Assembly: GCA_964016885.1 (NCBI GenBank)
Contig: OZ024748.1
Span: forward strand, 14,880,001 to 14,944,000
Length of the DNA: 64,000 bases
Source of the DNA: Eledone cirrhosa
Lineage: Eukaryota
Direction: 5' to 3'
Within the stretch, counting starts at the first letter, position 1; each line of letters opens with the position of its first letter. The translations under genes and the position numbers were made by a program. This document shows positions 28,566-59,372 of this stretch, in pieces. The notes below the pieces were generated by a model, which was not told the DNA's origin, did no database searches, and was given only the letters and a program-made list of their open reading frames with translations.

Positions 28566-28572
<7 letters not shown>

Positions 28573-28927
28573 GTGAGGTTTTTTTTTACAAAATGAAAAG
28601 TAACCGAGGTGTCCTACACGAGTGAAAGTATAAAGAAAAAGAGATGAAATCGAAAATGCAACTGAAGTCTTATTTTTTTTTTAAATATATATATTTATTT
28701 GGTTCCTTTACCGGTTTCGCAGTTCTTCTGCTTTTCAAAAGGCGAGTTGAGATGGAGGGTCTGTGGTTTTTCTCACAGGTTGTTTTTTCATATATGAGTG
28801 TTTGAATTTCTTTTTACTTGAAAAAAGGAGGCTCACGAAGGCTTTTTTTTGGAACCAAATAAATATATATATTTTTAAAAAAAATAAGACTTCAGTTGCA
28901 TTTTCGATTTCATCTCTTTTTCTTTAT
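28566..28927 (-). mobile_element. PLE pLTR with an inverted partial arm, embedded in (TA)n
   Basis: 28633-28706 is inverted at 28851-28926; homologous to 55692-55990; contains the hammerhead at 28705-28742. Confidence 0.8.
28705..28742 (-). ncRNA. Minimal hammerhead motif with a U3-A8 variant core
   Basis: Minus strand CCTT-TTGAAAA-GCAG-AAGAA-CTGC-GAAA-CCGG-TA-AAGG: perfect stems I and II, palindromic ACCGGT stem III. Confidence 0.78.
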
Positions 28928-29185
28928 ATATATATATATATATATATCATCATCATTATCACCATTTACTGTCTTATTTTCTATGCTTGCTTGGGTCAAA
29001 GGGATCATCCATGCTATAAGGCAAGTCTGGCCATTTAGCCATTTTTTTTACAGCTTGATGTTCTTCCTAACACCAACCACACACACATATGTATATATAC
29101 ATATTCAATATGTCTGCCATAACACATATATCTGTCTGCTAAACATTTGTCTATCTTCTATGACTATTTTGATCCCTGCATGTGG

Positions 29186-29475: not shown

Positions 29476-30400
29476 AGTTGTAGTAATAGGTGACTATAAA
29501 ATGTTACTGCGAAGAAGGGCACTTGGCCATAGTTCAAAGAGGACCCTCATCATGAATATGATTATAAACTTAACTCCTGCTTTTACATGGGAAATTGTAC
29601 TAAAACAGTAAAATACTTGTTATGTTGATGTTGTTGTTTGTTTTAAATGGCTAAAATGTCTCATCTGCATTGTAATGTTCTTATCCAGTGAGATAAAATA
29701 CAATTAATTGTAAAAATAAAAAAAAGGAATATTTCACAGTTCTAACCTCTATCAGAGTAATTAGTTGCAGAGAGATTGTTGAGGAGAAATAATTTGGGAT
29801 TTCTGGTGAAATATTAAACATAAGAGAATAAACAACTTGTATAGACACCTCTTAAAAAATCCTGAAGTATTCTCTTTCTTCTGTGAACTTAATCTTTTGT
29901 TGATTGCCTGTCAATCTGAACTAAGATTGGCTGTCATTCAAGTGAATGTTTCAGTATTCATTTTAGACAAGAGGCTTCACATAAAACTACAATAATGTTC
30001 TAAATTAGAACCCAGATATATATATACCAGATAAAATCTGTATCAGATAAGTAGCTTTCTCAGAATGGAATGGTACAATATCCTCTCTAGTGCAACTTTA
30101 CTAGTCTTAATATAACAACAACAATGTTGCAATGAAAAGCACAAAAACCTGACTAGTTACTAAGTTCACGAGTTTGACATTGAAGAACTATTCCTGCACT
30201 GGTTTCTAAATGGCCTCCTTTTTTCTCATACATTCTCTCTTTTGTTTCAACCCTTTTGATACCCAACTACAAGAAACTGCTCTTACTTTCATATATTACA
30301 ATAGAAGCAAGATTTGAACACCAATGATTTTACAATTCTGCTAATCATCAACAACAACACCCTTTGTGTGCTTGCACAAGAGTATATATATATATATATA

Positions 30401-31962
30401 GCAAAGTTCACATCCACTCAGACAAAACTGGAAATCTATACCACATGGATATTGATAATTACAATGAGTTCATTTATATAGAACACAGAAAAATTTATAA
30501 AAAAACAAATAATGCGGCTCTTACCAATATCAACAACAAAACATACAACATAGTAAATAAACACAATATTGAAGACAGAACTGAACCTTTGGCACTGAGA
30601 AAAACACACTTTAACCTGAAAGATCACAAATCTAACTTTAACTCTAATCCTTCTATAAGACTTATATGCCCTTCCAAATCTGACATTGGCATCATTAGTA
30701 AAACATTTGTAGATAGAATCATCCCACAATTAAGAAAACATGTTAATTTACGACTCTGGGAAAACACATCCCAAGTAATTAACTAGTTTACTAATATTAG
30801 AAATAAATCATCTGCTTCATGTGCATATTATCATGCACGCTAGACAAATACTACTGGAATTTCAGAATTTTAGATAGAATCATCCCACAATTAAGAAAAC
30901 ATGTTAATTTACCACTCTGGGAAAACACATCCCAAGTAATTAACTGGTTTACTAATATTAGAAATAAATCATCTGCTTCATGTGCAATATTATCATGCAC
31001 GCTAGACAAATACTACTGGAATTTCAGAAGGAATACTGGATCAGAAATACATATAGTAATCTCTTCGATATTACTATGGGCTCTAGTGATTCTGCCCAAA
31101 TTACCGATCTTGTGGGCCCCTTTCTTCTATTTAACATAAATTCTTCTTTTCCCCACCTTAAAGGTGGTTTATATCGTGATGACTGTCTTCTTCTTTCCAC
31201 TAATCTTAGCTTATCAGAAATCGAAAAAATAAAAAAAACTTATTAGAACTTTCCTCAAAGACTATTACAATCTCACTATTACATTTGAAAACACCAGTAA
31301 AATAGTTAATTTCCTAGATATAAATTTAGACTTATCTACAGGTATCTACGAACCTTACCATAAACCTAACCAAAACTTACATTACATACACTCACAATCC
31401 AATCATCCTAGATCTATCCTTAAAAACCTAGCATATAATATCTCACTCAGAATCTCTAACCTTTCATCTAACCAGGATGTATTCGATAAAAATGCGACCT
31501 TTTATAACGAAGCTCTAGCTAGAAGCGGCCACAAAAACAAATTAGTCTATATACCTTGCACCAATAATACTGCAAACATACAACCCAATATTACCAACAA
31601 ACACCAAATGAAAAACCCACACATAAATGCCACTCACACTACACCCCAAAATACCAATCTAAAACTTAATTTCTCTACCACTTCTCACATAAAATATGAC
31701 TTTCATAAAACCATTCATCCTAATACTCCAATATATGTTAACAACATTACTAACAAAATTCCTAATAATCAGACTAAAACACCTAAATCAGTTAATCTAA
31801 CTAAACCTATATATAATAAATTCACTAATAGTAACTCTCTGAGTAAACATCCTGATACATCGTATAAATATAAAAAACAATATCGAAGCCATAATAGACG
31901 GGTTACTTGGTATAATGCTCCATTTAATCTACAAATTAAAGATAATATCCCTAAAAATTTTA
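30401..31962 (+). pseudogene. Penelope-like retroelement reverse transcriptase fragment (inactive)
   Basis: Motifs SDKTGNLY, LKDHKSNF...IRLICPSKSDIG, FDITMGSSDSAQITDLVG, GLYRDDCL, VNFLDINLDL, SNHP and VTWYNAPF; stops and frameshifts, internal duplication, no GIY-YIG domain visible. Confidence 0.92.
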
Positions 31963-32024
31963 GTAGTGACTACCATGACTGAACCTTAACCATCTACTAT
32001 GTCAGAGTATGCCATGCATCATCT

Positions 32025-47910: not shown

Positions 47911-48134
47911 GTATATATATGTGTGTGTGTGTGTGCATATATATATACATAAACACACACAGACACATGTATATATATATATAATCATCATAAACCATAT
48001 AGGCATTACCACCAAGCTTAAACCATTTTGATGGCTGCAAGTTAATCTTTTATATTTCTTCACAAGGTTATAGCTAGTCATACTTAATTTTGGCCAGATA
48101 TACCAATGTTTTTACTGGCCATGTAAAGAGAGAC

Positions 48135-48742
48135 ATGATGGTGATGATGGTGATTGTGGTAGTGGTGGTGGTGGTGGTGGTGGTTGTGGCTTTGGTGGTT
48201 GTGGTGGTGGTGGTTGTGTTGGTGGTGGTTGTGGCGTTGGTGGTTGTGTTGTTGGTGGCGTTGGTGGTTGTGGCGTTGGTGGTTGTGGCGTTGGTGGTTG
48301 TGGCGTTGGTGGGTGTGGCGTTGGTGGTTGTGGCGTTGGTGGTTGTGGCGTTGGTGGCGTTGGTGGCATTGGTGGTGGTGGTGGTGTTGGTGGTGGTGGC
48401 GTTGGTGGATTTGGTGGTTGTGGAGGTGGTGGTAGTGGTTGTAGAGGTGGTGGTAGTAGTTGTGGTGGTGGTGCTGGAGGTTGTGGTGGTGCTGGAGGTT
48501 GTGGTGGTGTTGGTGGTTTTGGTGGTGGTGTTGGTGGTTTTGGTGGTGGTGTTGGTTGTGGTGGTTGTGGTGGTGTTGGTTGTGGTGGTGTTGGTTGTGG
48601 TGGTGGTATTGGTGGTTGTGGTGTTGGTGGTTGTGGTGTTGGTGCTTGTGGTTGTGAAAAAGATGACGATGATGATGATGACGACGACAAAGGTGATGAT
48701 GATGATGATGATGATGATGATCATGATGAAGACGATGATGAT
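48135..48742. repeat. (GGT/GTT)n triplet array with 15-nt GTTGGTGGTTGTGGC subunits, flanked by (GAT)n
   Basis: Seen directly. Confidence 0.95.
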
Positions 48743-49756: not shown

Positions 49757-49794
<38 letters not shown>

Positions 49795-49797
<3 letters not shown>

Positions 49798-50189
49798 GAA
49801 TTGTGGTAAGGAACCAGATGGACCATAACGCACCAGAGTACTCAATACTTAGGGTAGTAGAGTGGGAAATAGGAAAAAATGTATGACCCCGACAGCAGAG
49901 CTCAAGCTGTTTCGACGGCTATTTCTCGACTAAATTAGAATTTTTAGCCTGGTGAATAAATAGCCAAACTTGTCAAGGAGGTACTTCCTTATATGGGAAG
50001 ATTGTAGTTGTCAAGAGGATTGGTTAACATTTTTAACCATCCTCTTGACAACTACAATCTTCCCATATAAGGAAGTACCCCCTTGACAAGTTTGGCGATT
50101 TATTCACCAGGCTAAAAATTCTAATTTAGTCCAGAAATAGCCGTCGAAACGGCTTGAGCTCTGCCATTGGGGTCATACTTTTTCCTATA
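49795..50189 (-). mobile_element. PLE pLTR fold-back (~155-bp arms) in (TA)n
   Basis: 49869-50027 is nearly perfectly inverted at 50033-50189 with a ~5-nt loop; each arm has a hammerhead; AGTACTCAATAC motif near 49837. Confidence 0.85.
49881..49984 (-). ncRNA. Type I hammerhead motif with U3-A8 core and extended stem II
   Basis: Minus strand GTACCTCC-TTGACAA-G..GGCTATTT..GGCTAAA/TTTAGTC..AAATAGCC..C-GAA-ACAGC-TTGAGCTCT-GCTGT-C-GGGGTCATAC; GUC cleavage triplet. Confidence 0.75.
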
Positions 50190-50594
50190 TATATATATAT
50201 ATGACATAAAAAGGATGATGATGATGATATATATATTTTACATTGACTTTCTTTTCTCTGAGTTACATGGAAATCTTTTACATTCAGATGCCTATTCTAA
50301 CATTAATCCTTTTAGTTGCTTCTTACAACACACAGGAGTAAGAGGTGCAACTTATAGATGAGTATATATAGTAATTAAGTAATTTGTTTTCTAGGTGGAT
50401 TTGAGAAGTTAACAAATGTCACATTTGAAATAGAGCTTTTTATTGTATGTTATCACTTTGAGAGTATAGAAGATATTTTAATAGTACATTTGATACCATA
50501 TAAATGTTTGTAGATATAATCCATAAAACCTTTAATTTCGTTTGAGTTTTTACTTATTTTGTATAAACTTCAAATATCTAGAGTATATATTTAT

Positions 50595-55420: not shown

Positions 55421-55691
55421 AGACACAGCATTAGAAGGACTATGGGGGACAATCCATAATTTGTAGTAGGGTTTGTACTGCAAGAGCCCTTGGTATTGTA
55501 ACTCTTTTCACTCCCAAAAGAAAACAAAAAGAGGTGTTAGCTGACAAGAATTGTGCAATCGACACTCCAATCAGCCAATGCTAATGCCAATGGATTAAAG
55601 CGTTTGATGAGATGTACCAATCCAAGTTCGTTTTAGTAGTCAAATCGTTAATATTTACTGTGTGTGTATATATATATAAGGAAAAAATATT

Positions 55692-55980
55692 AAATCGAAA
55701 ATGCAACTGGAGTCTTTTTAAGAATATTTATTTGGTTCCTTTACTGGTTTCGTATTTCTTATGCTTTTCAAAAGTAGAATTGAGATGGAGGGTTTGTGGT
55801 TACCCCCCACCCCCCATCTCAATTCTACTTTTGAAAAGCATAAGAACTGCAAAACTGGTAAAGGAACCAAATAAATATTCTTAAAAAGACTCCAGTTGCA
55901 TTTTCGATTTCATCTTTTTTCCTTATACTTTCACTCGTGTAGGAGATCTCGTTTTTTTTTCATTTTGGGAAAAAAAACTC

Positions 55981-55990
<10 letters not shown>
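55692..55990 (+). mobile_element. PLE pLTR fold-back (~100-bp arms) with U3-A8 hammerhead motifs in both arms
   Basis: 55692-55792 inverted at 55810-55910; TTGAAAA core at 55831-55837 (+) and 55765-55771 (-); same family as 28566-28927. Confidence 0.82.
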
Positions 55991-59009: not shown

Positions 59010-59372
59010 ATCTTCCCTAAGGGCGAGATAAAATGTTGGTCGTTTTTACTGCTGCTATTTCTAGTGGCAGGACATTGACCTTTCCGCCCTTGCCTTCTAT
59101 CTTTACACACGTCACTAGACAAGATTGTTTCCTTATCATCCACTCTCATCCGGGAACAGTTCTGTATGGCGCCAGTTCGTGATTTGAACTCAGGAATTTT
59201 ATATTCTCCGAGTGAGAAGAACCCTCTGACGAAATTCTCCTTCTCAATGAAGTTCCGCATGGATTATCCATTTCTTTGAGAATTGAAACCGCGCGGTAAG
59301 GGTAAATATAGTAAGTACAGTAAACTTTTTAAAATTTATTTTTAAACTTTTTCTCTATTTGCTAAACCTTGA
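59010..59372 (+). mobile_element. Probable PLE pLTR or retrozyme-like unit inserted in (TA)n
   Basis: CpG-retaining ~360-bp island bounded by (TA)n on both sides, containing an intact hammerhead. Confidence 0.65.
59221..59303 (+). ncRNA. Intact type I hammerhead ribozyme motif
   Basis: ACCCT-CTGACGA(59226-59232)-AATTCTC...GAGAATT-GAAA(59285-59288)-CCGCGCGG-TA-AGGGT; predicted cleavage after GUA at 59298. Confidence 0.9.

What the first reader, a model, noticed from the sequence alone, without database searches (positions are those of the whole stretch)
49869..50189. ~155-bp fold-back encoding a second, unrelated U3-A8 hammerhead in each arm
Seen: core UUGACAA (49970-49976 minus; 50083-50089 plus), long two-part stem II, GAAA, 5-bp stem III with a GAGCUC palindrome in its loop, GUC site, and stem I pairing with GGGG. 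Stem III is ACAGC/GCUGU in the left arm and ACGGC/GCCAU in the right, which has lost the GUC, consistent with CpG decay. It shares no evident sequence with the 28.7/55.8-kb family, so U3-A8 cores occur in two lineages. Established: PLE insertions often carry inverted pLTRs. Inference: a read-through RNA would sequester the ribozyme in long dsRNA, a possible siRNA/ADAR substrate.
Basis: partly seen in the sequence, partly recalled or inferred. Interest (0 to 1): 0.75.

Follow-up and report, generated by a model that had tools for sequence, protein, structure and literature searches.

The report
Head-to-head Penelope stub with variant hammerhead
This fold-back is one truncated, back-to-back insertion of a jumping gene (a Penelope-like element) present thousands of times in this genome, and each arm carries that element's predicted self-cutting RNA in an already published variant form, intact on the left and likely dead on the right; the less ordinary point is that most copies stop at one base inside the ribozyme, which likely marks where the element's RNA begins.

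Summary
The fold-back and both motifs are there (149 of 157 aligned bases identical). It is the 399-bp stub (49791-50189) of a multi-copy Penelope-like element with Hydra-clade protein motifs, inserted head-to-head in (TA)n; the left arm has 78 extra 'tail' bases. U3-A8 is fixed in the family (99 of 100 listed copies at each position; no C3+G8 match in the genome). The 28.7/55.8-kb family has a different, Neptune/Nematis-type ORF (23% identity), so 'two lineages' holds. U3-A8 in Penelope hammerheads, opposite-strand pairs, inverted copies and tails are all published, and this scan has noted the pattern many times in this genome and others. The right arm is degraded by CpG-type changes; neither arm shows an A-to-G editing footprint; cleavage and expression are untested. 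Family data add a mechanism lead: 59 of 62 head-to-head pairs join one long-ended and one short-ended arm, and 73 of 251 arms stop within 3 bases at an initiator-like TTAGTC inside stem II, likely the transcript start. This locus belongs to the rare class (16 of 251 arms) that reads past that point. Ordinary as a locus; modest interest as a family.

The parts
49791..50189 (.). Whole insertion: two 5'-truncated copies of one Penelope-like element joined head-to-head, no ORF left
   Evidence: Matches family copies at 94-96% over 230 bases; ends coincide with the family's two fixed 3' ends
49791..50028 (-). Left (long-ended) arm: reference 2626-2863, hammerhead region plus tail
   Evidence: blastn to natural copy L034:2785-5652
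49791..49868 (-).
   Evidence: in tandem copies L031 and L032 it runs on into the ORF
49887..49980 (-). Predicted type I hammerhead, intact: stem I CUCC/GGGG, core UUGACAA (49976-49970), G10.1-C11.1 plus long stem II, GAAA (49913-49910), 5-bp stem III, GUC with predicted cut between 49891 and 49890
   Evidence: Sequence; constrained fold -27.1 vs MFE -30.7 kcal/mol; cleavage untested
50029..50188 (+). Right (short-ended) arm: reference 2627-2785, ends 20 bases after the predicted cut site
   Evidence: 4456 exact matches of this end followed by TATA in the genome
50079..50172 (+). Degraded hammerhead copy: core intact (50083-50089), GCCGUC changed to GCCAUU, one stem II pair broken
50024..50036 (.). 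Junction of the two arms at a short AT-rich self-complementary word; 5-nt loop
   Evidence: four other insertions with different flanks have their centre at the same word
49927..49933 (-). Initiator-like TTAGTC inside stem II; A at 49931 is the base where most family arms stop (likely transcript start). Mirror copy at 50126-50131 (+), A at 50128
   Evidence: joints in DNA contigs land at 50127-50137 and 50168; initiator role inferred
49765..49790 (.). (TA)n target, left flank
50188..50202 (.). (TA)n target, right flank

Best explanation
The stretch is a protein-less stub of a multi-copy Penelope-like retrotransposon with Hydra-clade motifs, inserted head-to-head in a TA repeat, likely because the two cut DNA ends each primed reverse transcription at one of two fixed points of the element's RNA, and each arm carries the family's predicted U3-A8 hammerhead. 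Shown: family membership, ORF motifs in longer copies, two fixed 3' ends 78 bases apart, one of each end per fold-back, fixed U3-A8, decay of the right arm. Inferred: the endonuclease cuts both strands of (TA)n; one end primes at reference 2863, the other at 2785; both cDNAs run toward the RNA 5' end and are joined through short self-complementary words. Most stop at A2725, likely the transcript start; here both ran about 100 bases further, so the template was likely a read-through or circular RNA. The hammerhead likely serves the active element by cutting its transcript in the downstream repeat; in this stub it likely has no role, and any read-through RNA would pair it away.
For: 2123 first-look candidates, best 40 at 94-96%; 584 exact matches of the core-flanking pattern, 0 with C3+G8. 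Copies L034-L037 read [inverted short arm][ORF][repeat+tail]; L034 holds a 577-aa open frame with LYRDD, CNCPDRSTC, YIG and CNLCSEE, L031 has DKT; 793 homologues at E<=1e-20. End counts: 4456 short ends, 5815 long ends, 3027 read-through. In 180 loci taken from the first listed places on contig C1: 59 of 62 head-to-head pairs are long+short (p 6e-15), junctions differ from copy to copy; arms of a pair share 5 variants vs 0.86 expected (4 of 2000 permutations). Stop rate 0.23-0.27 per base at 2724-2726 vs 0.007-0.012 in 2733-2764. Against sister subfamily A2, 1 of 48 core/stem positions differs vs 9 of 46 others (p 0.006). Literature: inverted 5'-truncated copies and one-sided tails (PMC8557442), two RT start sites bounding the tail and both strands cut and extended (PMC11167929), U3-A8 and opposite-strand pairs (PMC4209133).
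Against: No cleavage or RNA data. The hammerhead fold is not the predicted MFE in any of 7 sequences tried (0.8-3.6 kcal/mol above it for five intact family sequences, 7.4 for the whole left arm, 13 for the right arm); an alternative pairs UUGAC of the core with GUC. No pile-up of arm ends at the predicted cut site (7 of 251 at 2765-2767), so cut RNA is not seen as a template. Only 36 of 87 family copies pass a strict intact-motif test. The two arms overlap, so one pass over one RNA cannot make both. Hydra placement rests on motifs, not on a tree. The A2 comparison uses 8 copies, and the 3' half of the motif may be conserved for promoter or RT-binding reasons.
Confidence: 0.8

Rival explanations
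1. Same element, but the second arm is made by fold-back self-priming: one cDNA folds on a short palindrome at its 3' end and copies itself, and the tail is lost when the intermediate is resolved.
For: The centre is a near-perfect hairpin at a self-complementary word reused in four other insertions; arms of a pair share variants; proposed for Penelope palindromes in PMC3846280 (passages).
Against: Many pairs have arms that do not overlap or do not mirror each other (e.g. L110 2839-2868 with 2724-2785; L149 2803-2868 with 2723-2785; long spacers in L003, L005, L014), which self-copying cannot give; the short end is fixed at 2785.
Confidence: 0.1
2. The pile-up of arm ends at 2724-2726 is reverse-transcriptase arrest at the folded stem II, or an RNA processing site, not a transcription start.
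For: The site lies in the 3' strand of the inner stem II hairpin; TTTAG also resembles a splice acceptor; a shoulder of stops at 2727-2732; the test for an extra cap-derived G was inconclusive (6 C, 5 G at 11 junctions).
Against: No arrest at the stronger outer stem II or stem III (0.007-0.012 per base); the edge is sharp and sits on a pyrimidine-A; no shared upstream exon sequence precedes the stops; family B has a similar edge at CAGATG about 40 bases before its core, outside any ribozyme stem (25 of 66 arms at two positions, biased sample).
Confidence: 0.25
3. The hairpin is a host-used double-stranded RNA (siRNA source or ADAR substrate) that regulates the ribozyme.
For: It would form a very stable 155-bp duplex if transcribed; unchecked scan notes report edited Penelope hairpins elsewhere in this genome.
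Against: No A>G or T>C change in either arm against the family majority; arms have decayed like other copies; thousands of such stubs exist; no host ORF was recognised among the 12 long frames printed for the window.
Confidence: 0.05
4. A MITE-like or retrozyme-like non-coding unit that moves as a whole.
For: Short, palindromic, TA-flanked, no ORF; same centre in four other places.
Against: Unequal ends, variable junctions and lengths, and continuity with an RT-endonuclease ORF in longer copies; no head-to-tail short units seen.
Confidence: 0.03

Closest known systems
Hydra clade of C-terminal EN+ Penelope-like elements, including Hydra-1_Obim (Craig et al. 2021, PMC8557442; section 11, passages, supplement parts 1-2 and search passages read)
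   Same: DKT, LYRDD, CxCx5C linker, CxxC and CxH around E and N, (TA)n target, hammerhead near the 3' end, inverted 5'-truncated copy, one-sided tail
   Different: All 26 listed Hydra hammerhead rows (25 families) have C3-G8, short stem II and 3-4-bp stem III (their search was for canonical cores); here U3-A8, a 56-nt stem II arm and 5-bp stem III with a 9-nt loop; tail 78 bases vs 30-40 quoted; RWG/RWR instead of RWK; unit about 3.0 kb
U3-A8 minimal hammerheads of Schistosoma mansoni Cercyon Penelope-like elements (Cervera and De la Pena 2014, PMC4209133; parts 1-2 of 4 read)
   Same: U3-A8 core in a Penelope repeat (about 1300 hits there), G10.1-C11.1, palindromic element in stem III/loop 3, pairs on opposite strands 100-700 bp apart
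   Different: Those lack a real stem III and need dimers; this one has a 5-bp stem III and could fold as monomer or dimer
Poseidon element PAc of Anolis carolinensis (Frangieh et al. 2024, PMC11167929; parts 1-2 of 4 read)
   Same: Two internal RT start sites bounding the tail, both target strands cut and extended, AT-rich target, uncleaved RNA as template
   Different: Other clade, C3-G8 core; no pairing of the two sites to the two arms and no 5' stop inside the ribozyme reported in the parts read
Natural U3-A8 hammerheads (Perreault et al. 2011, PMC3088659; passages read)
   Same: States that C3-G8 covaries to U3-A8 in several natural examples and that such pairs were shown active in vitro
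   Different: Not tied to Penelope elements in the passages read

Membership tests
Type I hammerhead ribozyme | Core N3-UGA-N7-N8-A with 3-8 Watson-Crick pair, and GAAA | tested here: met
   U3-A8 in both arms; of 100 listed family matches U3 99, A8 99, position 7 free (63 C, 33 A, 3 U, 1 G; hand count)
Type I hammerhead ribozyme | Stems I-III, A15.1-U16.1 and NUH triplet, left arm | tested here: met
   4-bp stem I with extension, G10.1-C11.1 plus 9-bp helix, 5-bp stem III, GUC
Type I hammerhead ribozyme | Stems I-III and NUH triplet, right arm | tested here: not met
   C-A mismatch at 15.2-16.2, AUU triplet, broken stem II pair
Type I hammerhead ribozyme | Active fold favoured; match to an Rfam hammerhead model | tested here: inconclusive
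   Fold 0.8-3.6 kcal/mol above MFE in intact sequences (the model ignores core tertiary contacts); no Rfam hammerhead hit
Type I hammerhead ribozyme | Self-cleavage after N17 | not testable with these tools
   No RNA run listed; needs an assay
Minimal metazoan PLE hammerhead (min-HHR) | Stem III absent or 1-2 bp, obligate dimer | tested here: not met
   5-bp stem III, hairpin -5.0 to -6.5 kcal/mol; dimer also possible
EN+ Penelope-like element | ORF with RT and C-terminal GIY-YIG endonuclease | tested here: met
   In longer family copies (L034 577 aa), read by motif; Pfam gave no hit; absent from this stub
EN+ Penelope-like element | Pseudo-LTR, partial tandems, inverted 5' copy, one-sided tail | tested here: met
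   L031, L032 tandems; L034-L037 inverted copies; 59 of 62 pairs with tail on one side
Hydra clade | DKT, CxCx5C linker, CxxC/CxH around E and N, no CCHH, (TA)n target | tested here: met
   HSDKTGN, CNCPDRSTC, CNLCSEE; LLNKK...CKH and lack of CCHH read by eye (my pattern for N..CxH was too long and missed it)
Hydra clade | RWK motif | tested here: inconclusive
   RWR in L031, RWG in L032
Hydra clade | RT groups with published Hydra RTs in a tree | not tested
   Published sequences were only read in the supplement and compared by eye
Non-LTR retrozyme | Non-coding short units in head-to-tail tandem | tested here: not met
   Family is continuous with a coding element
MITE | Equal terminal inverted repeats and a fixed internal structure | tested here: not met
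   Unequal ends, variable junctions

The most novel reading that the evidence does not exclude
The element's promoter fires from inside its own ribozyme (A2725, in stem II). The transcript then starts with only the 3' half of the hammerhead, is cut at C2765 by the full hammerhead in the downstream repeat, and so carries a 41-base terminal redundancy. Reverse transcription primed 61 and 139 bases from the cap makes strong-stop cDNAs (the common stubs), which must jump through that redundancy, as retroviruses do through R, to copy the whole element; this locus would be a double jumper. U3-A8 arose independently in at least two Penelope clades of this genome, perhaps starting from CpG decay of C7-G8.
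Probability: 0.2. Interest if true: 0.7.

Novelty: new member of a known kind. Interest (0 to 1): 0.33.

Why it matters
As a single locus it matters little: it is a decaying stub, one of thousands. As a family it gives a clean genomic record of Penelope integration, which is still poorly understood: two fixed priming points used one per arm, and a sharp upstream stop inside the ribozyme. If that stop is the transcript start, it locates the promoter, says which half of the hammerhead each RNA end carries, and gives a testable answer to how an element that primes near its RNA's 5' end makes full-length copies. It also extends the U3-A8 core to a clade whose listed hammerheads are all C3-G8, which warns that CUGANGA-only searches undercount these ribozymes.

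Tried and rejected
Rfam: no hammerhead model hit locally or among the 150 whole-window rows shown. Pfam: no family at cut-off for the ORF or three homologues. RNA: no RNA holder listed, so expression, small RNAs, editing and cut ends could not be looked at. Template ends at the predicted cut site: first suspected, rejected on the larger set (7 of 251 arms, no excess). Cap-derived extra G: inconclusive. The Hydra-type endonuclease piece beside family B in L090 looked like B's own ORF but B's real ORF is of another type. Fold-back moving as a fixed unit: rejected (only 4 other exact-pattern centres, different flanks and junction letters). Compensatory changes in stem I extension between subfamilies A1 and A2: none clear. 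A paper on 3-8 pair exchange was not held. Literature searches for U3-A8, Penelope hammerhead inverted, promoter, octopus and twin priming/strong-stop returned no listing that describes a start site inside a Penelope hammerhead; only listings and the passages cited were seen, so this is not proof of absence.

Full report
Observation. The two arms align with 149 identities, 8 mismatches and 7 gap positions, and the stretch folds as one hairpin far below shuffles (-262.8 kcal/mol, z -35.7). The 5' ends of both motifs point to the centre, so the arrangement is head-to-head. The left arm continues 78 bases beyond the mirrored part, and both outer ends sit in (TA)n; the insertion is 49791-50189.

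Family. A search of the own genome (3.0 Gb) with the left arm gave 2123 first-look candidates, of which 40 were scored, at 94-96% identity. Longer copies carry an ORF: L034 has a 577-aa open frame with LYRDD, CNCPDRSTC, YIG, CNLCSEE and CKH, and L031 has HSDKTGN; 793 database proteins match it at E<=1e-20, unnamed; Pfam gave nothing. These motifs are those given for the Hydra clade of Penelope-like elements in PMC8557442 section 11, and the N-terminal and RT parts resemble Hydra-1_Obim by eye; no tree was built. L034-L037 read [inverted short arm][ORF][repeat and tail]; L031 and L032 are partial tandems in which the tail runs into the next ORF. I number positions on the natural copy L034:2785-5652: core U3 2680, predicted cut 2765/2766, short end 2785, long end 2863.

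The core. A pattern leaving positions 3, 7 and 8 free matched 584 places; among the 100 listed, U3 was in 99, A8 in 99, and position 7 varied (63 C, 33 A, 3 U, 1 G, hand count). The C3+G8 version matched 0 places. Between the majority of 87 family copies and of 8 sister-subfamily copies, 1 of 48 core and stem positions differs against 9 of 46 others (one-sided p 0.006). That fits a selected ribozyme in the active elements, with the caveat that the 3' half may be kept for other reasons. Against: the hammerhead fold was not the MFE in any of 7 sequences, Rfam did not see it, and 36 of 87 copies pass a strict intact test. U3-A8 is a known natural pair, reported active in vitro (PMC3088659, passages) and found in about 1300 Schistosoma Penelope motifs, a paper that also notes opposite-strand pairs 100-700 bp apart (PMC4209133). 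All 26 Hydra rows in the supplement of PMC8557442 are C3-G8, but that search was for canonical cores.

This copy. Against the family majority the left arm has 8 substitutions and a 2-base insertion, the right 4 substitutions and a 1-base loss near the centre; none is A>G or T>C. The right arm's GCCGUC to GCCAUU is two CpG-type transitions; the left arm's A-U pair in stem III is also two. Family CpG positions are changed at 76 of 1152 (6.6%) against 540 of 17252 (3.1%). The left motif is intact on paper; the right is likely dead.

Second lineage. The 28.7-kb family has a minimal hammerhead UUGAAAA...GAAACCGGUA (45 copies in my scan), no significant nucleotide match to family A (best E 0.25), and an ORF with RYLDD, CGRSNCGTC and a CCHH-type endonuclease, 23% identical over 282 aa: a Neptune/Nematis-type element by the criteria of PMC8557442. 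So U3-A8 sits in two clades here. Two further U3-A8 candidates and several C3-G8 families turned up in fetched loci.

How the fold-back is made. Exact patterns counted 4456 short ends followed by TATA, 5815 long ends and 3027 read-throughs of the short end. From the first listed places on contig C1 I held 180 loci (L102-L281) and mapped 251 distinct arms; 59 of 62 head-to-head pairs join a long and a short end. Junctions differ between copies, some pairs do not overlap at all, and paired arms share more variants than shuffled pairs (5 vs 0.86). This fits priming from both cut ends at two sites of RNA from one source element, in line with the in vitro result for the Anolis element (PMC11167929), better than fold-back self-priming (PMC3846280). 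The centre of this locus lies at a short self-complementary word used by four other insertions with different flanks. The pairs were counted only where both ends matched my patterns, and the sample is from one contig.

The upstream stop. Of 251 arms, 141 stop in 2720-2732 and 73 in 2724-2726; only 16 pass 2720. The stop rate is 0.23-0.27 per base at 2724-2726 against 0.007-0.012 in 2733-2764. The commonest stop is the A of TTAGTC (TCAGTC in L104), which resembles the insect initiator consensus (recalled, not from a call); Penelope promoters lie in the repeat (PMC2377424, passages). Joints in DNA contigs land at the same place, 50127-50137, with one listed at 50168. There is no excess of stops at the predicted cut (7 of 251), and the extra-G test was inconclusive. 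I read A2725 as the likely transcript start (about 0.65); arrest or processing are the rivals. If so, the RNA begins inside stem II, and a cut in the downstream repeat would leave 41 bases repeated at both ends, which could serve a strand jump; this last step is speculation. Both arms of this locus reach 2626-2627 and so belong to the rare long class.

The dsRNA idea. Any read-through RNA would form the duplex, with the antisense arm made first, so the ribozyme would not fold (order is inference). No RNA run was listed, and there is no editing footprint in the DNA. Nothing marks this stub as used by the host.

Earlier scan notes (unchecked AI notes) describe the same long/short pairing in this genome, the Hydra assignment, U3-A8 motifs in at least 10 genomes and strong-stop-like stubs in another genome. 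I had the two fixed ends before reading any of them and the pile-up and clade from my own; they show the scan has met this pattern before and are not used as support.

Verdict. Real, correctly seen, and a new member of a known kind. Interest 0.33.

Noticed in passing
window 28570-28930 and 55670-55990: Stubs of family B, a Neptune/Nematis-type Penelope element with a minimal U3-A8 hammerhead; it too has two fixed 3' ends (62 bases apart) and an upstream stop near CAGATG about 40 bases before the core.
   Followed up: partly
window 59221-59303 (+): Canonical C3-G8 type I hammerhead (CUGACGA, 7-bp stem II base, palindromic stem III ACCGCGCGGU) in another TA-flanked stub.
   Followed up: no
window 30328-31979 (+): Decayed Hydra-type RT pieces (HSDKTGN; 28-48% identity to family A), a different family.
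   Followed up: no
L014:1018 (+), L060:422 (+); L055:1289 (-), L025:2726 (-), L004:2401 (+): Two more candidate U3-A8 hammerhead families (UUGAUAA with palindromic ACUACGUAGU; UUGAWAA with long stems), unrelated in sequence to A and B.
   Followed up: no
G000:C1:399273171-399360202: The same family-A fold-back recurs about every 28 kb, three full pairs and one more arm, likely a tandem segmental duplication.
   Followed up: no
L090:1686-2471: A family-B arm joined to a folded-back endonuclease piece of a different, Hydra-type element: a likely template switch between two Penelope clades.
   Followed up: partly
L077, L104, L045, L156: Sister subfamily A2 (82-89% identical) keeps the U3-A8 core and lengthens the loop III palindrome to UGAGCUCA.
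   Followed up: partly
window 48055-48700: Tandem array of 9-15-base GC-skewed units 1.1 kb left of the insertion.
   Followed up: no
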